A DNA stretch of 64,000 nt from a virus: positions 32,001 to 96,000 of IMG/VR virus record IMGVR_UViG_3300045256_000282; one strand, given 5' to 3'. Below are positions 2-26,897 of this stretch, piece after piece. The translations under genes and the position numbers were made by a program. Position 1 is the stretch's first letter; each line of letters starts with the position of its first letter. A model generated the notes under the pieces. That model was not told the origin of the DNA and made no database searches. It saw only the letters and a program-made list of their open reading frames with translations.

Positions 2-1114
2 GTAGACCACATCCTTTCTGATGCGCATGATCAGGTTCAAACTGGTGGTGGAAGTCCCGAAGCTCAGAAACAAGATGAGCATTATCTTAGCCACGTTGTG
101 CTAGGCGATGCTGGAAACGGCGAAGAGGATGTTAGCCAAGAATCTGCTGATGAATACGACATGGCTCCAACCTCTAATTCTCCAGATGACCAAGAAATTA
201 CTCCTGAAGGCGCTGCTGCCGCACAAGAGATGGTAGATGACGCAGCAAATTCAGAAGGCTGCAATTGTCCTGCTTGCCAAGAGCGCCATGCTATGGAGGC
301 TCAGGGTCAGGGGCCGGAAGAAGAAGCAACTGAGGGTTGCGATTGTCCTGCTTGCCAAGAGCGTCATGCTATGGAGAGTGGTGCTGAAGAGCCTATGCCA
401 GAGATGGCTACTCAGAATGAAGAAGATCTTCCAGAACAAGACTCTATGCAGATGATTCCAGATGCTCAAGCTGAGGGTTCGGACCTTCCTCCTATGCAGA
501 TGCCAGAATCTCAAGAAGATCCTCAAAGCGCTATGGGAGAAATGGGCGAAGAAGATGCTATCGAGATTCCAGAGAACGAGTCTTTAGACGAGCAAAAAGA
601 TCCAGAAGAGATGGTTGCTGCCGCAGTAGGGCCTAATGAAGATCCTGAGCAAGAGGGCGCTGTTCCTGAAGAAAACATGTCAGAAGACGGCTTTCCAGGC
701 GCAATTCCTGGTGAAGGTGAAGAACCCGTAAATCAAGAAGATCTAGAAGAGATGCAAGATCCTTCAAACGAACAGATGCCTCCCCAACAAGACATGGGAG
801 CCATGGGTGAATCCCAGGAACAACCTGGGGACCTAGACCTATTGTCCGAACTTTTATCAGATGCAGGATCTACTGATGAGCTTAAACAAAGAATTGCAGC
901 TATACTTGAAAAGTTTAAAGCGAACAGGGATTCAATCATCTCGATGAAAGATCAGAACCCCGAGATGTACCAATCGATCATACTCATGCTTAAGCAGATG
1001 ATCGACATGGCGAGACATCTAGCCCCATCATCGCCAGAGGAAGATATGCCTCAAGATGAGCAGTCTGTTCCAGAGGAAGCTTCTCAGGAGGAAGCACCTC
1101 TCCCAAAACAGTAG
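2..1114 (+). CDS. Very acidic, low-complexity protein, 5'-truncated by the window edge; probably head-associated/scaffold-like; candidate -1 frameshift extension to 1314
   Basis: Frame is open from base 2 (VDHILSDAHDQ...) to TAG 1112-1114; E/D/Q/P/M-rich; lies directly upstream of neck/tail genes. Confidence 0.75.
   Translation, partial: VDHILSDAHDQVQTGGGSPEAQKQDEHYLSHVVLGDAGNGEEDVSQESADEYDMAPTSNSPDDQEITPEGAAAAQEMVDDAANSEGCNCPACQERHAMEAQGQGPEEEATEGCDCPACQERHAMESGAEEPMPEMATQNEEDLPEQDSMQMIPDAQAEGSDLPPMQMPESQEDPQSAMGEMGEEDAIEIPENESLDEQKDPEEMVAAAVGPNEDPEQEGAVPEENMSEDGFPGAIPGEGEEPVNQEDLEEMQDPSNEQMPPQQDMGAMGESQEQPGDLDLLSELLSDAGSTDELKQRIAAILEKFKANRDSIISMKDQNPEMYQSIILMLKQMIDMARHLAPSSPEEDMPQDEQSVPEEASQEEAPLPKQ
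254..376 (+). repeat. Two 45-nt direct repeats (254-298, 332-376) encoding EGCxCPACQERHAME
   Basis: 41/45 nt identical by direct comparison. Confidence 0.9.
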
Positions 1115-1162
1115 GGTCGGTAGAAAAAGGCGGGAAACTGCCGACCAAGCAAACAACTCGCC
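1102..1162 (+). other. Programmed -1 ribosomal frameshift signal: slippery heptamer plus H-type pseudoknot
   Basis: C CCA AAA at 1102-1108 in frame; 6-nt spacer; stem 1 GGUCGGUAG 1115-1123 / CUGCCGACC 1138-1146; stem 2 GGCGGG 1129-1134 / CUCGCC 1157-1162; -1 frame open to TAA 1312-1314. Confidence 0.7.
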
Positions 1163-1313
1163 ACGTAGCAAGAACTAGACAACCCGAAGGTGCTATTAAC
1201 CGTAAGGGTTTTGAAAAAGTCATCGATAACGAGACTGGCAAAACTAGATGGGTAGATCGTAAGAAGCCTGTTGCCCTTGACCTACAGGGCGATCCTACTC
1301 ACGAGAGATTCTA

Positions 1314-2066
1314 ATGAACCTTAAGTTTTTTGTTAACGCAGATGATATAGCCAACGAGATGAAGGCTTTTAAAGAAGAGGCTAAGCAGGCGATAGAAGAG
1401 TCTGTTAAGCAACTATCTGCGATGACGCACGCTAAGGTTGTTGAGCTTGCACAAGAAAAGTTAAAAAGTACACGCAAGATCTATACCGACAATTTGGATT
1501 ATCAAGAGCTTGTCCCAGGCTTGTGGGTTGTTAGTTTAGATCAGCCAGCGTTGTGGATCGAAGAAGGCCGTAAATCTGGGGACATGACACAAGACCTGCT
1601 CAAGACTGGCGCTCACATAGCTAAAGATGGAAGTCGATATAAGGCGATTCCTTTTGATCACGGTAAGCCTCCATCTCAGATGGACCCCTTCAGCAGAAAC
1701 TTGGTGGCAAAGATCAAGTCTGAGCTTAAGAAAGCAAACATACCCTTTAAGAAGCTTGAGCTTAACGCAGATGGAAGTCCGAGGATAGGTCGGCTTCATA
1801 CCATGAACATCTCTAGTCCTCACCCAAGCTCGAGGGCTAGTCATCCGGCACTTTCTGGTTTGACCATATATCAAACAAAAGGTGCAAATGGCAAGGTTCG
1901 TCGCGATATAATGACCTTTAGAATGGTAAGCGATAAACATAAAGGCTCTAAGTGGATTCATCCTGGAAGAGACGCCGAGGGCTTCTTTGAAAAAGCTTTA
2001 CAGTGGGCCGAAGATCAGTGGGAAAGAGAGATCCTACCTCAGATCATGGCGAGGTTTGACAAATGA
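1314..2066 (+). CDS. Putative neck / head-tail completion protein
   Basis: 250 aa; position upstream of sheath; W-I-E-E-G and WIHPG...FFEKA motifs reminiscent of phage neck/tail-completion proteins. Confidence 0.55.
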   Translation: MNLKFFVNADDIANEMKAFKEEAKQAIEESVKQLSAMTHAKVVELAQEKLKSTRKIYTDNLDYQELVPGLWVVSLDQPALWIEEGRKSGDMTQDLLKTGAHIAKDGSRYKAIPFDHGKPPSQMDPFSRNLVAKIKSELKKANIPFKKLELNADGSPRIGRLHTMNISSPHPSSRASHPALSGLTIYQTKGANGKVRRDIMTFRMVSDKHKGSKWIHPGRDAEGFFEKALQWAEDQWEREILPQIMARFDK

Positions 2067-18594: not shown

Positions 18595-19592
18595 ACAAGA
18601 TCATGGAGATGCGTTTTGGCAGCCATCTTTATGGCACCAATACCGAAAACTCTGATTTAGACATGAAAGCGATCTATATTCCTTCTGCTCGAGAGATCAT
18701 CTTGGGTAATTACAAGAAAACGATCACGGTCACCAGGAACAAGAAGGAAGGCGAAAGAAACACAAAGGACGACATAGACGTCGAGATGTTCAGTCTTGAT
18801 CGGTATCTCGAGCTTCTTATGGAAGGCCAGACAGTAGCTTTAGACATAACCTTTGGTGTAGGGGTTGACGATATAGAGTCAGATCTTGGATCTGAGATCT
18901 TCATCACCATAATCCAGAACCTAGACAAGTTGTTGACTAGAAACGTCAACGCCTTCGTGGGGTATGCAAGGCAGCAGGCTGCTAAGTACGGTATCAAAGG
19001 ATCTAGAATGGACGCGCTAAAGAGCGTCATGGAGATGCTCGAGCTGTTCTACTACCAGGACAAGTTGATCGACCACAAGGTCGAGCTTGAGGCTTTAGTT
19101 GAGCGATCAAGCGAGCTGATCTCTCTTGAGAAGACGCCGCTGATCGAAATCGTCGACATCAAGGGACCTAACGGTAGTGTGGAGCCCCACCTTCATGTAT
19201 GCGGTAGGAAGATTCCGTTCCACGCCAAGGTTCAGTTCGCCAAGCAAGTATTTGGAAAGATTTTAGAAGGATATGGATCTCGAGCACGCAAGGCAAACCT
19301 TGACGGAGGTATCGACTGGAAAGCGCTATCTCATGCTGTAAGAGTTAATAATGAGGCGCTCGAGTTGCTTAATACGGGAAAGATCACTTTTCCAAGACCG
19401 GAGGCTCAACTCCTATTAGACATAAAGCTTGGAAAGATTGAATACGAAAAAGTTGCGGAGATGATCGAGCAAGGTTTGGCAGACTTGACGGAAGCTCATA
19501 AGACCAGCAAACTCAGAGACGAACCAGACAAAGAGTGGGCTAAAGATTTCTTGTATTCTGTATACCTTGAAGAAATTAAGAGGACAACGTGA
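18591..19592 (+). CDS. Pol-beta superfamily nucleotidyltransferase (RlaP / T4 NrdC.11-like)
   Basis: FGSHLYGT...SDLD, F.GYAR.QA.KY, DWKALSHAVR motifs. Confidence 0.85.
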   Translation: MNKIMEMRFGSHLYGTNTENSDLDMKAIYIPSAREIILGNYKKTITVTRNKKEGERNTKDDIDVEMFSLDRYLELLMEGQTVALDITFGVGVDDIESDLGSEIFITIIQNLDKLLTRNVNAFVGYARQQAAKYGIKGSRMDALKSVMEMLELFYYQDKLIDHKVELEALVERSSELISLEKTPLIEIVDIKGPNGSVEPHLHVCGRKIPFHAKVQFAKQVFGKILEGYGSRARKANLDGGIDWKALSHAVRVNNEALELLNTGKITFPRPEAQLLLDIKLGKIEYEKVAEMIEQGLADLTEAHKTSKLRDEPDKEWAKDFLYSVYLEEIKRTT

Positions 19593-19990
19593 AAATTAAC
19601 TACAAGGACGCGTACCTTCAATTGATTGAGTATGTAAACGCAAAGAATGTCTGGGTTTACGATACCGACCTGCATGGTCCTGGTATGGCTTTTGATCTAA
19701 GACGTGGCGGCACACGAAGACTAATCGGCATAGACGGCAGGCTTTCTTGGAAAAGACGGCTTTTTGTACTGATGCATGAGGTTGGGCATCTTTTCTTCCT
19801 GCATATCCCTACTCAAAAACTCAAGTTCAGAAAAAGCACCGGCTCCAGCGAGATCGCTGCCAACAGAACTGCGGTAAGGCTGATCAAGATATTGACAGGT
19901 CGTGACAGGCACAAGCTTCATCTCGAATATGCTCGCTATTATAACAGTGCTGTAAAAGGAACCTCTAGGAACAAGTTCTTGTTGACTTAA
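19589..19990 (+). CDS. ImmA/IrrE-like zinc metallopeptidase
   Basis: F.LMHEVGH...E..AN..A. Confidence 0.7.
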   Translation: MKINYKDAYLQLIEYVNAKNVWVYDTDLHGPGMAFDLRRGGTRRLIGIDGRLSWKRRLFVLMHEVGHLFFLHIPTQKLKFRKSTGSSEIAANRTAVRLIKILTGRDRHKLHLEYARYYNSAVKGTSRNKFLLT

Positions 19991-20026
19991 AGGGTCAGAT
20001 TTGTAAAGATACAAGGAGAGGTGCTT

Positions 20027-20377
20027 ATGGGAAAAATGAAAGAGCTTTACATCAACGCTTACGAGTCTGGCATCGATCTTGGTATGGATCATGACGAAGC
20101 TGATCAGTACGCAAGGGAATCATTAGCACAAATGTTCGATATTGAAGATAACAATAGCAGATATGAGTCAAATAAGAAGATCCTAGAGATTTTGGGACGT
20201 TTGAACGAAGAAAATCCTGATCAAAGGTTTGTTCAGTTGTTGTTCAATGCTGACATCTTAGTCTCTAACAGAGGGGAAGACGGTAAGATTTCTGTAGAAA
20301 ACGAGTACAACACAGAATCAGAAGAAACTTTAGAAAGACTTTTGAATTCTAGCATTGTAAATTCAGATAAGGAATAA
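20027..20377 (+). CDS. Hypothetical protein
   Basis: TTGACT promoter at 19982 and AGGAGAGG RBS; PDQRF.QLL.N motif. Confidence 0.6.
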   Translation: MGKMKELYINAYESGIDLGMDHDEADQYARESLAQMFDIEDNNSRYESNKKILEILGRLNEENPDQRFVQLLFNADILVSNRGEDGKISVENEYNTESEETLERLLNSSIVNSDKE

Positions 20378-20386
20378 GGAGATCGC

Positions 20387-20818
20387 ATGTTCGGACTATT
20401 CAATAAACATTTAAAGGCAGAGATTGAAAAACTACAGAAGCAGCTGGCGGAGCACCGTGACCATCAGGGCCGCGCCGACCGATTATTTGCTGAGCTTAAG
20501 GAAGCAAAGCAGGAAAACGAAAATCTTCGGATTTCTCTTGAATCCACCGAAAGACAAGTCGAAGAGCTTAGAAACGAATATTCGGTAAAACTCACCGATG
20601 CTCAGGCTAAAAAGTATTTGAAGGCGCTTGATAAGCGGAATCTTCAGAAGCTTGAGGATATTGTGAACTCTATGCCTAACGATTCCTACTTTTATAGCGA
20701 ATTCATTGTTTACGTCAAGAAGACAAATAAGACCGAGCTTCGTTTGATTGAAGATAAGCTGGGGGCTCTTAAGATCCTAAGTCAGGCTAAGCGAGGAGCT
20801 ATCAAGATCGTGTGCTGA
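20387..20818 (+). CDS. Coiled-coil hypothetical protein
   Basis: 143 aa, AGGAG RBS. Confidence 0.65.
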   Translation: MFGLFNKHLKAEIEKLQKQLAEHRDHQGRADRLFAELKEAKQENENLRISLESTERQVEELRNEYSVKLTDAQAKKYLKALDKRNLQKLEDIVNSMPNDSYFYSEFIVYVKKTNKTELRLIEDKLGALKILSQAKRGAIKIVC

Positions 20819-24100: not shown

Positions 24101-24603
24101 AACCTTCTGATTTCCTAAAGATTCACGATTCAGCCCTGGTGGACACCCTAGAACCAGATATGACCTACCACTACAGGTCTATCTGTAGGTGGTACTCAGA
24201 GAAGTTTCACACCCCTCTTCATACGGTCGAGAACGAGCTTCCTCCCATCTACGTCCTTAGGCACTACTACGAGTCAAACTTCTCCACCATGGAAGAAGAG
24301 GACATGGAGAGGCTCATATTTAAGGCACTCAACCCAGACTGGAACGAGGATGAGGAAGAGGATATCCAAGACTTCATAGACATGGTCGAGAAGGAAGATA
24401 AAGCCCGACAATCCAAGTCAACTAATAAGAAGCAATCTATAGAAGGTAAGTCTAAACCGAGCGGGACTTCGAGTGTTGGTTCTGTAACTAGAACTTTCGA
24501 CGAACCTCCGCCGCCCGAGGCAGGCTCCGATCCAGACAGCACGCTGGGTCCGACACCAGTGATCGGTGATGAGGATGATGACTCTGATCCTCAACAAGAC
24601 TAG
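24097..24603 (+). CDS. Putative tail assembly chaperone (T-like) with acidic tail
   Basis: R.ICRWYS.KF.TPL..V......L..YYE pattern. Confidence 0.45.
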   Translation: MKPSDFLKIHDSALVDTLEPDMTYHYRSICRWYSEKFHTPLHTVENELPPIYVLRHYYESNFSTMEEEDMERLIFKALNPDWNEDEEEDIQDFIDMVEKEDKARQSKSTNKKQSIEGKSKPSGTSSVGSVTRTFDEPPPPEAGSDPDSTLGPTPVIGDEDDDSDPQQD

Positions 24604-24696
24604 TAAGGGTTACTAAGCGTTTTTAGGGTCGCCCCTAGAATCGCCCCCCGTATTTCCAGCCCTGGTTGTGGCCAACAGAAAGTTAAAAGTTGGATT

Positions 24697-24936
24697 TCAC
24701 GATCGGGGATTCTTGCGTCTAGAGAGTTTGGTTAACCTCTTAATCTCAAAATTCTTTTCCTGAAGCTTGAGATCCATGATCTTTAACTTAACCATCATCA
24801 ATAAAGCCTTGTGTTCAGCTTCAAAAATTCGCTTTTCTACGGTCAGATTTTTATCGCTCGGATCTGTATTACGTCCGTACGTTGCCTTTACGTGCATCTC
24901 CCAAGCCTTTTTCGTTTCGCTGTTTAAGTTATTCAT
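24697..24936 (-). CDS. Hypothetical protein
   Basis: 79 aa, GGAG RBS. Confidence 0.55.
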   Translation of the reverse strand: MNNLNSETKKAWEMHVKATYGRNTDPSDKNLTVEKRIFEAEHKALLMMVKLKIMDLKLQEKNFEIKRLTKLSRRKNPRS

Positions 24937-25403
24937 TTGTTCTCCAGTCCCAGATAGCTCCGATTAAGAAACAGCTACCTGATATGAAGGAGCATACCCT
25001 ACCAAGAGTAACGCTGTCAAGTATTCCTATGAGCGTGGCAGAGAAGAAGGCTATGGCGCAGACTAGTGATAGGGCTTGACGAGGTTTCATATTACCTCAA
25101 AAGCAATATAGCCGCAATTGCAGCCCAGGCAATGCAATGGTGACCTGTGTAGTGTTGGACTCCTGCGTAGACAACGATTAGCAGGGAGAGCTTGTAGACG
25201 TGACGGTATAGGGGTTTCATTAGAACATTACCCCAATTGTGAACCTACCCAAAGTAAGCCGGTAGATGTATTTCTTGTCTTTCCTCATAAACGTGCGAGT
25301 AATACCAAACAACGTGTCCATCCTTTGGTTTCTGCTAGTGTTACTCCACCAACAAGTCCCAGGCTTAGCTATTTTGGCGATCACGATAGGCATTTTCATA
25401 CGG

Positions 25404-25604
25404 TTACTGCTTTTTTCCTTTAGCTGCCATTTCTTTAGCCGCCGCAAACACCCAGCGTCTTGCTGTATACTGATTCCAGTGAAGATTTAACTCAGTGTCT
25501 GTTTCTTTATGAAAGCCCCAACAGTGAGAGCCGTCGCATAGCACCACCCACCCATCGGGTAGGGGCTTGAATCTTTTTGGGTATTGGTACTCAAAAATTG
25601 TCAT
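25404..25604 (-). CDS. Hypothetical protein
   Basis: 66 aa, ATGA-coupled. Confidence 0.5.
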   Translation of the reverse strand: MTIFEYQYPKRFKPLPDGWVVLCDGSHCWGFHKETDTELNLHWNQYTARRWVFAAAKEMAAKGKKQ

Positions 25605-26035
25605 AAACCTTTGTTTTTCCTATCAACTTTCTTCTGCAGCTCTAAAACCTTCTTATCGTGCTCCTCGGTCCACTCTCGAAGGGTGACCTCTCCGAAGACT
25701 GCGTAGGTTCGAACATATTCCGAGGTCGCGTCGTCTAAAACTTTATATCTCAGGTTCATCTGCCAGATTTGGCCGCCAGCTCGAGACAGTAGGCGTTCCA
25801 TGATCGGAAAATTCTTTTTATTGATAACGCCAGTAGAGACCATCTCCTTGACCATCTCGACCTCTTTCGCAGTTTCAGGAGAAGTATAGTACCCCTCAAA
25901 AAGCTTAACCTCACCCCACATCTCCTCATCGATCTCGCCCTGAACATCATTCACGTAGTATTGGCCTGTAGGCGCTCCCCAGCGGTCGGCATACTCCTGG
26001 ATCGAAGGTAACTTGCAGATTCTCTTCATGACCAT
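25601..26035 (-). CDS. Hypothetical protein downstream of structured leader
   Basis: 144 aa, AAGGAG RBS. Confidence 0.65.
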   Translation of the reverse strand: MVMKRICKLPSIQEYADRWGAPTGQYYVNDVQGEIDEEMWGEVKLFEGYYTSPETAKEVEMVKEMVSTGVINKKNFPIMERLLSRAGGQIWQMNLRYKVLDDATSEYVRTYAVFGEVTLREWTEEHDKKVLELQKKVDRKNKGL

Positions 26036-26059
26036 ACTTAGGGCTCCTTAGTTAAAACT

Positions 26060-26288
26060 TTGAACCGATGAGGCGCAACCCTCCACTTGCTCGGTATCTA
26101 CACAAGGCGGCATAATTTAAGGAACCACGCCAGCCAAAGGTCCGGTAAAATCATGGGTTCTACCTAGCCCAGGTGAGGTACCTCCCACCAAGTGTTGTCT
26201 ATTGTTACGAGTCCAACTGTGCCTCGGGAGCTGCCGCTCCTATCCCAACTTAGTATCGAGAGCTACCCGACCTATGGTTGGAAAACTT
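26060..26288 (-). ncRNA. Candidate structured ncRNA or long structured 5' leader
   Basis: No ORF of 60 aa or more on the minus strand; several helices including a GGCA-tetraloop hairpin; G.U pairs favour the minus strand; own promoter. Confidence 0.5.
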
Positions 26289-26294
26289 ATACAT

Positions 26295-26323
26295 ATACTA
26301 TCAGAACTCAAAAAAACTTTCAA
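26295..26323 (-). promoter_or_regulatory. Sigma70-type promoter
   Basis: TTGAAA-17-TAGTAT with TG extension. Confidence 0.6.
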
Positions 26324-26479
26324 ACACTTTCATCTCTTCATCACTCATCCGGCCCATTATCACTGACACCATACCAGGATTCCCCTTAATGATCCACCCC
26401 ATCTTGGTACCGTCTGTCCTTTTGATGTACCTGATGGCAACCATTAATCCAATTCCTTGTTGAGTTCTTTTAAACCCGG

Positions 26480-26866
26480 TCAGGTATTCTTTTTCTTCTT
26501 TTCAAAAGCCTTACGAACCTTGATGCACTGCTTATACAGCCTCTCGACCTCGGCCATTCGTTCCTTGATCGGAGCGTCACTCCAGAACTGGTCATCCATG
26601 AGATCAGGAAGAAATCTAGGACCCCATGCGATAGGACGACGACCTTGGGTGTGGCCAGGAGCATCAAAGCTATTGTAAAACCCCTGAAAGTTCTGGTCAC
26701 CTGTGGCTAGGTGAAAGAACAACTCTCGGATTGCATAGAACGTGTCAGAGTCCCAATCGCTGTGCTCCAGCTCAAACTTCTTGTAAGAAATTTCTTTTAC
26801 AAGCTTATATGCGTGAGTATGGTGCGCTTTAATAAGTCTGTCTAAGGCTTCTATTGTTGAGGTCAT
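26480..26866 (-). CDS. Hypothetical protein
   Basis: 128 aa, GGAG RBS. Confidence 0.6.
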   Translation of the reverse strand: MTSTIEALDRLIKAHHTHAYKLVKEISYKKFELEHSDWDSDTFYAIRELFFHLATGDQNFQGFYNSFDAPGHTQGRRPIAWGPRFLPDLMDDQFWSDAPIKERMAEVERLYKQCIKVRKAFEKKKKNT

Positions 26867-26897
26867 ACTTTTTCTCCAAACAGCTTGAGAAAGCTTC

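What the first reader, a model, noticed from the sequence alone, without database searches (positions are those of the whole stretch)
1102..1314. Pseudoknot-stimulated -1 frameshift that adds a basic 68-aa tail to an acidic head-region protein
Seen: in-frame X XXY YYZ heptamer C CCA AAA (1102-1108) one codon before the TAG, a 6-nt spacer, a 9-bp stem (1115-1123/1138-1146) and a 6-bp second stem (1129-1134/1157-1162) forming an H-type pseudoknot. The -1 frame (TVGSVEKGGKLPTKQTTRHVARTRQPEG...TGKTRWVDRKK...HERF) has no start codon of its own, fills the 200-nt gap exactly and ends in TAATG overlapping the next gene. Known: phage -1 frameshifts mostly occur in tail chaperone and capsid/tail genes, and this geometry matches viral frameshift stimulators. 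Inference: two isoforms at fixed ratio, the longer with a folded basic anchor domain.
Basis: partly seen in the sequence, partly recalled or inferred. Interest (0 to 1): 0.85.

Follow-up and report, generated by a model that had tools for sequence, protein, structure and literature searches.

The report
Conserved -1 frameshift extends phage mCpol protein
A late gene of an uncultured 149-kb hot-spring phage very probably makes a 491-residue and a 558-residue protein from one message, because some ribosomes slip back one base at a dnaX-style signal. The mechanism is textbook, but this gene family (a phage mCpol cyclase-domain protein) is not described as recoded.

Summary
This covers the in-phase C CCA AAA (1102-1108), CAG then TAG, the 9-bp stem 6 nt downstream, a complementary second stem, a start-less 68-codon -1 frame, and the TAATG overlap.

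Comparative data make a programmed -1 ribosomal frameshift the clear best reading.
- 26 distinct related phage loci keep the tail in the -1 frame. Each has an in-phase slippery heptamer: CCCAAAA, CCCAAAG, AAAAAAG, AAAAAAA or GGGAAAC.
- A covarying hairpin starts 6 nt later in 20 of 23 loci.
- A Shine-Dalgarno-like element sits about 10 nt upstream (AGGAGG 1086-1091).
- Other relatives, including the cultured Myxococcus phage Mx1, carry the same tail fused in frame.
- The tail shows third-position-biased substitutions and folds as a small beta domain (pLDDT 79) with no known relatives.

The pseudoknot's second stem is better than chance in this window (p about 0.002) but is not conserved in register. 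The "anchor" function is untested.

This scan already found the same frameshift in at least five other genomes. Verdict: a real new member of a known kind, of moderate interest.

The parts
2..1114 (+). 3' 370 codons of the 0-frame gene. The whole gene is G000:C1:31639-33114 and encodes 491 aa: an N-terminal mCpol palm domain, a roughly 330-aa acidic low-complexity region, and a C-terminal helical segment. The stop is TAG 1112-1114.
   Evidence: pI 4.05 and net charge -92
1086..1091 (+). Internal Shine-Dalgarno-like AGGAGG, 10 nt 5' of the heptamer (5' frameshift stimulator).
   Evidence: The anti-SD pairing profile over 24 loci peaks only at gaps of 8-10 nt: 14-17 of 24 loci reach dG <= -5 there, against 0-2 at gaps of 14 nt or more.
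1102..1108 (+). Slippery heptamer C CCA AAA in X XXY YYZ phase.
   Evidence: an in-phase heptamer in 26 of 26 loci with the -1 arrangement
1109..1114 (+). 6-nt spacer CAGUAG, containing the 0-frame stop TAG (1112-1114).
   Evidence: spacer of 6 nt in 20 of 23 loci, 5 or 7 nt in the other three
1115..1146 (+). Stimulatory hairpin: stem 1115-1123 with 1138-1146 (9 bp) and a 14-nt loop.
   Evidence: 77.8% of cells paired against 9-53% when slid; 6 of 9 pairs change on both sides
1129..1162 (+). Possible second stem (1129-1134 with 1157-1162) that would make an H-type pseudoknot. Status uncertain.
   Evidence: p=0.002 in the window; mixed in relatives; 42% of cells paired in this register
1108..1314 (+). 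-1 frame extension: 68 codons (1108-1311) plus TAA (1312-1314). It encodes a conserved basic domain with the motifs LPxKxTTxH and GxxKVxDxxTGKxxW.
1314..2066 (+). Next gene (250 aa, phrog_16819, unknown function). Its ATG overlaps the stop of the extension (TAATG).

Best explanation
The 3' end of the phage gene for an mCpol-domain, highly acidic protein carries a dnaX-type programmed -1 ribosomal frameshift cassette. Its parts are an internal Shine-Dalgarno-like AGGAGG, 10 nt of spacing, C CCA AAA, 6 nt of spacing, and a 9-bp hairpin. The hairpin loop may pair further downstream into a pseudoknot.

Most ribosomes read CAG and stop at TAG, giving a 491-aa acidic form. A fraction stalls with tRNA-Pro and tRNA-Lys on CCA AAA and re-pairs on CCC AAA. 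These ribosomes read 68 more codons, giving a 558-aa form with a small basic beta-rich C-terminal domain. They terminate at TAATG, on the start codon of the next gene.

Shown by sequence and comparison: the signal, its conservation, the coding status of the -1 frame, and the fact that the full architecture (N-terminal domain, linker, helical segment, tail domain) exists as one in-frame protein in relatives.

Inferred: that slippage occurs, its efficiency, and what the tail does. My guess is that it binds a virion component or nucleic acid, and so decides which share of the protein is tethered or packaged.
For: 1. All elements are present at the stated coordinates.
2. Among 59 related loci, 26 distinct non-truncated ones have the tail homologue in the -1 frame. 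Every one has an in-phase heptamer of a shift-prone type in the overlap. 15 of the 26 have no ATG, GTG or TTG before the conserved motif.
3. The minimum-free-energy hairpin begins 6 nt after the heptamer in 20 of 23 loci. There are 15 different 6-bp arm combinations, and pairs 3 and 4 each show all four Watson-Crick types. Matched arms give 5.8 of 6 pairs, against 4.0 for mismatched arms and 0.6-3.0 when slid. Formal count: covariation score 0.342 against a shuffle mean of 0.206 (0 of 500 shuffles reach it), and at most 0.139 when slid.
4. Anti-SD complementarity peaks sharply 8-10 nt upstream of the heptamer.
5. In-frame fusions: L044 and L056 (mCpol to tail, 646 and 695 aa), L045, L052 and L043, Myxococcus phage Mx1 WNM70340.1, P0004 and P0005, and many representatives with the domain at the extreme C-terminus. 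The trans-frame products align with these fusions from the slip site onward (PK|TVGSV against PKSVGGSI).
6. The in-frame relatives lack the hairpin.
7. Substitutions against L009, L010 and L035 concentrate at third positions of the -1 frame (for example 11/5/29, p=3e-5).
8. The tail folds with mean pLDDT 79.
9. C_CCA_AAG is described as highly shift-prone in E. coli, and a 5' SD as a major stimulator in dnaX and about 56% of IS elements (PMC5009743).
10. Contigs of two sequencing runs, from what is probably the source sample, agree base for base with no indel.
Against: - There is no direct evidence: no RNA run holds the stretch, and there are no proteomic or reporter data.
- C CCA AAA is, from general knowledge of E. 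coli, less slippery than C CCA AAG or A AAA AAG. The host and its tRNA-Lys set are unknown.
- 11 of 26 relatives have a GTG, TTG or ATG early in the tail frame, and gene callers used them (P0001 and P0002).
- One relative (L055) has the tail in the +1 frame.
- The loci are phylogenetically related, so counts are not independent events.
Confidence: 0.9

Rival explanations
1. The frameshift is the same, but the stimulators are only the upstream SD-like element and a simple hairpin. The second stem (1129-1134 with 1157-1162) is fortuitous and no pseudoknot forms.
For: In the window's register only 41.7% of cells pair across 23 relatives. In several relatives the loop forms an inner extension of the hairpin instead (L061, L039, L030, L025, L063). 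Many loci give p>0.15 for any loop-downstream helix. dnaX works with an SD plus a hairpin (PMC5009743).
Against: - In the window, 2 of 1001 loop shuffles reach the observed 6-bp helix.
- The nearest relatives keep a 5-6 bp loop-downstream helix with similar loop lengths. Changes on both sides preserve the end pair: GGCGGG/CUCGCC against GGCGU/ACGCC, and GCGUA/UACGC against GCGUU/GACGC.
- L029, L031 and L033 share another register, with a C-G to G-C swap.
- Fisher's test over one representative per stem class, leaving out the window's own class, gives p=0.04.
Confidence: 0.5
2. The 68-codon frame is a separate small gene, translated by its own initiation or by reinitiation after the TAG. It is not joined to the upstream protein.
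For: Gene callers predicted free-standing 65- and 80-aa proteins in relatives from GTG or TTG. 11 of 26 loci have some start codon early in the frame. Many short database entries exist.
Against: - The window has no ATG, GTG or TTG in all 68 codons, and 15 of 26 loci have none before the conserved motif.
- The GTG and TTG codons sit inside the hairpin arm, at ordinary Val and Leu positions.
- This reading would not explain the conserved in-phase heptamer, the fixed 6-nt spacing or the SD at -10.
- Relatives encode the domain as the C-terminus of the same protein.
Confidence: 0.04
3. The shift is made at the RNA level: RNA polymerase stutters on the A run and produces mRNAs with one extra A, which ordinary translation reads through into the tail.
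For: Some relatives have A8-A9 runs at the site (L064, L062, L041). Runs of 9 A or T are known to give transcriptional slippage in bacteria (PMC5009743).
Against: The window has only four A's, and most relatives have CCCAAAG (three A's). The conserved hairpin at 6 nt and the SD at -10 act on ribosomes, not on polymerase. Heptamer phase is conserved, which slippage on a run would not require.
Confidence: 0.03
4. It is an assembly or sequencing indel, or a decaying gene. The real gene is one continuous ORF, or the tail is a dead remnant.
For: Homopolymer runs are error-prone. In-frame versions exist in relatives.
Against: 26 distinct assemblies with different sequences show the same -1 offset. 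Contigs of two runs agree at 21x and 13x depth without an indel, although they probably come from the source sample. The tail is under purifying selection.
Confidence: 0.01

Closest known systems
E. coli dnaX (tau/gamma) programmed -1 frameshift cassette
   Same: The tripartite signal matches. There is an internal Shine-Dalgarno-like element about 10 nt 5', an X XXA AAR heptamer decoded by tRNA-Lys in the A site, and a stem-loop about 6 nt 3' (spacings from my own knowledge of Larsen et al. 1994 and 1997; the SD role is cited from PMC5009743). One gene gives two products that share an N-terminus. Relatives show the arrangement reversed or fixed in frame, as described for dnaX in other bacteria.
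   Different: The gene is unrelated. Here the frameshift product is the longer form. The heptamer is C CCA AAA rather than A AAA AAG. The 0-frame stop lies in the spacer. A possible second stem would make a pseudoknot. Efficiency is unknown.
Phage late-protein C-terminal extensions by -1 frameshift (T7/T3 gene 10A/10B; Lactobacillus phage A2 major head and tail proteins)
   Same: A -1 slip near the 3' end of a phage late gene adds a C-terminal domain to a share of the molecules. Pseudoknot stimulators are reported for A2 (PMC5009743).
   Different: The protein is not a capsid or tail shell protein but an mCpol-domain protein. The extension is a 68-aa basic beta domain with no Ig-like or other known fold. 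Virion incorporation has not been shown.
Tail assembly chaperone G/GT frameshift of tailed phages
   Same: A conserved -1 frameshift in the late operon of tailed phages, recognised by comparative genomics.
   Different: The position differs: this gene lies between the head genes and the neck/sheath genes, not between the tube and tape-measure genes. There was no homology in the Pfam or PHROG scans. This is a different gene family.
Panoptes mCpol (OptS), Pfam PF18182
   Same: The N-terminal 120 aa match PF18182 above the cut-off (55-59 bits against 26.4) and carry the DGD and GGDE motifs.
   Different: It is phage-encoded and fused to a roughly 370-aa acidic region and a recoded C-terminal domain. 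Its neighbours are virion genes, with no recognised 2TM-beta effector. The Panoptes papers I checked contain no instance of 'frameshift', 'phage-encoded mCpol' or 'viral mCpol'.

Membership tests
Programmed -1 ribosomal frameshift site (dnaX type) | X XXY YYZ heptamer in phase with the upstream frame, inside the overlap of the two frames | tested here: met
   C CCA AAA at 1102-1108. In-phase heptamers are present in 26 of 26 -1 loci.
Programmed -1 ribosomal frameshift site (dnaX type) | Stable RNA structure starting 5-9 nt 3' of the heptamer, conserved by covariation | tested here: met
   A 9-bp stem after a 6-nt spacer. The spacer is 6 nt in 20 of 23 loci. Covariation is shown.
Programmed -1 ribosomal frameshift site (dnaX type) | Internal Shine-Dalgarno-like element about 10-14 nt 5' of the heptamer | tested here: met
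   AGGAGG at 1086-1091. There is a position-specific peak of anti-SD pairing at gaps of 8-10 nt in 14-17 of 24 loci.
Programmed -1 ribosomal frameshift site (dnaX type) | The -1 frame is coding, conserved and lacks its own start. The joined product matches in-frame homologues. | tested here: met
Programmed -1 ribosomal frameshift site (dnaX type) | A trans-frame protein is actually made (reporter, mass spectrometry or ribosome profiling) | not testable with these tools
   No RNA run holds the stretch, and only DNA contigs were available.
H-type pseudoknot frameshift stimulator | The loop of stem 1 pairs with sequence 3' of stem 1, with loop lengths able to span the grooves | tested here: met
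   GGCGGG/CUCGCC with L1=5, L2=3 and L3=10; loop-shuffle p=0.002; duplex -8.6 kcal/mol
H-type pseudoknot frameshift stimulator | The second stem is conserved or covaries among relatives | tested here: inconclusive
   In fixed register only 41.7% of cells pair. Subclades have their own registers with some compensatory changes. Fisher's test without the window's class gives p=0.04.
mCpol (PF18182) / Panoptes | Palm domain matching PF18182 with its catalytic acidic motifs | tested here: met
   58.7 and 55.1 bits against a cut-off of 26.4. FDGDNMG and GGDEG are present.
mCpol (PF18182) / Panoptes | Adjacent 2TM-beta (or CARF-TM) effector gene forming a defence operon | tested here: inconclusive
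   The neighbours are a 302-aa unknown protein, phrog_16819, an SD-unrelated SP10_terminator-like protein and the tail sheath. No effector family was hit, but no dedicated search for one was made.
Tail assembly chaperone G/GT | Gene pair between the tail tube and tape-measure genes, with homology to TAC families | tested here: not met
   The gene lies between the head block and the neck/sheath genes, and there was no TAC hit in Pfam or PHROGs.

The most novel reading that the evidence does not exclude
The frameshift sets the share of a phage-made, catalytically intact mCpol cyclase that carries a C-terminal tethering domain. The long form would be bound to a virion component or to the packaged DNA and delivered with the genome, so that an immune-type nucleotide signal is made at the very start of infection. 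That signal could, for example, feed or jam Panoptes-like or other cyclic-nucleotide defences. The short form would act free in the cytoplasm late in infection. Lineages that fixed the tail in frame, lost the mCpol domain or inactivated it (Mx1) would mark different settings of this switch.
Probability: 0.12. Interest if true: 0.8.

Novelty: new member of a known kind. Interest (0 to 1): 0.5.

Why it matters
This adds a well-supported recoding event to the short list of phage frameshifts outside the tail-chaperone and capsid genes. Gene callers miss it: they either drop the tail or call a spurious 65-80 aa ORF.

The family is a natural series. It includes slippery sites of five kinds, in-frame fusions, and one possible reversed arrangement, which makes it useful for studying how frameshift cassettes arise and are lost.

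It also shows that the phage copies of mCpol, the cyclase of the recently described Panoptes defence, come in two C-terminal forms. Any functional study of these phage proteins will have to take that into account.

Tried and rejected
- DNA and protein searches of the phage collection with the locus and with the tail gave nothing. Only the 250-aa neighbour found Myxococcus phage Mx1.
- The tail domain had no hit in Pfam or PHROGs. The PDB profile search gave only an insignificant resemblance to a methanol dehydrogenase propeller blade (E=0.027). The protein atlas gave no usable hit.
- Foldseek against PDB and BFVD gave nothing at or below E=0.001. The best rows were the lambda integrase arm-binding domain and WW and cold-shock domains at E>2. 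This is no basis for a function.
- Rfam gave only chance-level rows (E of 4 or more) for 1040-1240. The hairpin is not a terminator, as no T tract follows it.
- No RNA holder was listed for the stretch. Only Logan contigs of what is probably the source sample could be laid, so no read-level test of the A run or of expression was possible.
- I considered folding a natural in-frame C-terminal region. I dropped it because the 60-90 aa disordered linkers in those relatives would make any docking uninformative.
- Phage A2 paper PMC355979 is not held.
Full report
OBSERVATION. The window's first ORF (2..1114, + strand, open at its 5' end) ends ...CTC CCA AAA CAG TAG. So C CCA AAA (1102-1108) is an in-phase X XXY YYZ heptamer, one codon before the stop. 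After a 6-nt spacer comes GGUCGGUAG (1115-1123), which pairs with CUGCCGACC (1138-1146). This hairpin is the minimum-free-energy structure and is worth -13.4 kcal/mol on its own. Loop bases GGCGGG (1129-1134) are complementary to CUCGCC (1157-1162), with a duplex energy of -8.6 kcal/mol. The -1 frame is open from 1108 to 1311 (68 codons) without any ATG, GTG or TTG. Its TAA (1312-1314) shares its last base with the ATG of the next gene.

WHAT THE GENE IS. The window is bases 32001-96000 of a 149-kb IMG/VR virus record. The complete 0-frame gene encodes 491 aa. Residues 5-118 match Pfam mCpol PF18182 well above the cut-off (55-59 bits against 26.4) and carry FDGDNMG and GGDEG. The rest is extremely acidic, giving a whole-protein pI of 4.05 and a net charge of -92, and it ends in a helical segment. 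Upstream lie the major head protein, a homing endonuclease, and several unknown or polyvalent-type proteins. Downstream lie a 250-aa protein (phrog_16819), an SP10_terminator-like protein and the tail sheath. So this is a late, virion-block gene of a large myovirus. The only cultured relative I found is Myxococcus phage Mx1.

COMPARATIVE TEST OF THE FRAMESHIFT. Using the conserved 250-aa neighbour as a handle, I fetched 59 related loci from viral and metagenome contigs, plus four loci through two database proteins. A tblastn search with the 68-aa peptide finds a homologue directly upstream of that neighbour in about 50 of them.
- In 26 distinct loci that are not cut by a contig end, the tail lies in the -1 frame relative to the long acidic ORF. 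Every one has an in-phase slippery heptamer in the short overlap.
- The heptamers are CCCAAAA (6 loci), CCCAAAG (10, leaving out L014), AAAAAAG (8), AAAAAAA (1, L039) and, in L014, most likely GGGAAAC.
- 15 of the 26 loci have no possible start codon before the conserved LPxKxTTxH motif.
- In the others the GTG or TTG sits at an ordinary Val or Leu position. For example, the window's GTA is GTG in L004, which is why a gene caller produced the 65-aa P0001.
- A tree of the neighbour protein shows the arrangement kept over deep divergence, with several changes of heptamer type.

ROSETTA-STONE RELATIVES. In L044 and L056 the same tail is the in-frame C-terminus of 646- and 695-aa mCpol proteins. 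In L045, L052 and L043 it is the in-frame C-terminus of proteins that lack the mCpol domain. In phage Mx1 (WNM70340.1, annotated as hypothetical) it ends a 468-aa protein with a degenerate mCpol domain. The trans-frame products I built in a script align with these proteins from the slip site onward: window ...APLPK|TVGSVEKGGKLPTKQTT against L044 ...SPKSVGGSIGQPAGKLSSQHTT. A profile search of 1.8 billion representatives finds 118 clusters with the domain. They are bimodal in length. One group is 33-150 aa pieces. The other is 350-840 aa proteins with the domain at the very C-terminus, and 7 of the 10 I scanned have an N-terminal mCpol domain. So the joined protein is the family's normal architecture.

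RNA SIGNALS.
- Hairpin. Folding the 60 nt after each heptamer gives a stem that starts after exactly 6 nt in 20 of 23 loci, and after 5 or 7 nt in the other three. There are 15 different combinations of the outer six pairs. Pairs 3 and 4 each occur as U-A, C-G, G-C and A-U. Own arms give 5.8 of 6 pairs, against 4.0 for arms swapped between classes and 0.6-3.0 when the partner is slid. On a MAFFT alignment the helix has 77.8% of cells paired (9-53% when slid). Six of nine pairs change on both sides, and the covariation score is 0.342 against a shuffle mean of 0.206 (0 of 500 shuffles reach it). The 3' arm lies on the conserved Leu-Pro codons. The 5' arm lies in a poorly conserved stretch, so it is held by the RNA, not by the protein. 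In-frame relatives have no such hairpin.
AGGAGG at 1086-1091 ends 10 nt before the heptamer. Averaged over 24 loci, pairing energy to the anti-SD is about zero everywhere in the 60 nt upstream except at gaps of 8-10 nt. There 14-17 loci reach -5 kcal/mol or better, against 0-2 loci at gaps of 14 nt or more. With the heptamer and the hairpin this is the dnaX layout. The review PMC5009743 calls the 5' SD a major feature of dnaX and of about 56% of IS frameshift sites, and calls C_CCA_AAG highly shift-prone in E. coli.
- Second stem. In the window only 2 of 1001 shuffles of the loop give as good a helix with the next 32 nt. The closest relatives keep 5-6 bp helices of similar geometry, and changes on both sides preserve the end pairs. 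L029, L031 and L033 use another register, with a C-G to G-C swap. But in the window's register only 42% of cells pair across the family, and several relatives extend the hairpin inward instead. Fisher's test over one representative per stem class, leaving out the window's class, gives p=0.04. I put a functional pseudoknot in this phage at about even odds.

THE TAIL AS A PROTEIN. Against L009, L010 and L035, substitutions in codons 20-68 fall mainly on third positions of the -1 frame: 11/5/29, 19/11/27 and 16/14/34, with p between 3e-5 and 0.03. With a 31-sequence alignment, AlphaFold gives mean pLDDT 79 for a small domain built around a beta hairpin. It is basic, with pI 10.2 and a net charge of +5.6. 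No family, solved structure or predicted viral structure matches it. Its function is unknown. I guess it tethers the protein to a virion component or to nucleic acid.

RIVALS.
- Independent initiation is excluded for this window because it has no start codon, and it would not explain the heptamer, the spacing, the SD or the fusions.
- An assembly indel is excluded by 26 independent assemblies. It is also weakly countered by two run-level contigs that agree exactly, although they probably come from the source sample.
- Transcriptional slippage is implausible on four A's. It could contribute in relatives with A8-A9 runs.
- Stop-codon readthrough does not apply, because the tail is in another frame.

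COMPARISON AND NOVELTY. The mechanism is that of dnaX, or of the C-terminal extensions of T7/T3 gene 10 and phage A2 head and tail proteins. It is not the tail-chaperone frameshift. In the Panoptes/mCpol papers I checked, 'frameshift', 'phage-encoded mCpol' and 'viral mCpol' do not occur. Earlier notes of this scan report the same frameshift in at least five other genomes and reached the same reading. I derived mine independently before reading them. This is a new member of a known kind.

LIMITS. There is no expression, read-level or protein evidence. The host is unknown, though the sample labels are hot spring and microbial mat. Efficiency, and therefore the 'fixed ratio', is unknown.

Noticed in passing
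window 257-298 and 335-376: Two copies of a cysteine motif, G-C-(N/D)-C-P-A-C-Q-E-R-H-A-M-E, lie in the acidic region. Relatives carry several CxxC pairs at the same place instead (CKYC...CPYC in L045; CPYC repeated in P0010 and P0020). This may be a small metal-binding module.
   Followed up: no
L043:2264-2300: This in-frame relative keeps an in-phase A AAA AAG 37 nt before the KLP codons. Its -1 frame reads AAA AAA GGA TGA, so a slip there would give a short form by early termination. That is the reverse logic, as in E. coli dnaX.
   Followed up: partly
L055:2130-2340: One relative has the tail in the +1 frame with a 110-nt overlap, and an ATG 47 nt before the upstream stop. The heptamer position reads ATCCCCACAG. 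This could be an indel, an independent start or another recoding event. It is unexplained.
   Followed up: partly
L069:2556-3962 (Myxococcus phage Mx1, WNM70340.1): The cultured relative has the tail in frame, and its N-terminal domain has lost the DGD and GGDE motifs (PF18182 scores 21 bits, below the cut-off). L045, L052 and L043 and several database proteins have no mCpol domain at all. The conserved core of the family is therefore the helical segment plus the tail.
   Followed up: partly
window 1312-1316: The TAATG overlap means that the only ribosomes terminating on the start codon of the 250-aa gene are those that frameshifted. Some expression of that gene could therefore be coupled to the frameshift rate. 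A weak GAGAG lies 6 nt upstream of the ATG.
   Followed up: no
L068:5245-6768 and L068:10435-12876 (G000 19244-20767 and 24434-26875): A 508-aa HNH/homing-endonuclease and Mom-like protein lies directly after the major head gene. An 814-aa protein nearby has a sub-threshold ART-PolyVal match. This is consistent with earlier scan notes of a cargo-like block upstream of the mCpol gene.
   Followed up: no
P0010, P0013, P0020, P0007, L044, L045 (linker before the tail): In-frame relatives share a motif, W-x-(D/N)-P-F-P-(T/A)-H-P-(D/E)-x-G-G, sometimes twice, between the helical segment and the tail. It is absent from the frameshifting lineage of the window.
   Followed up: no
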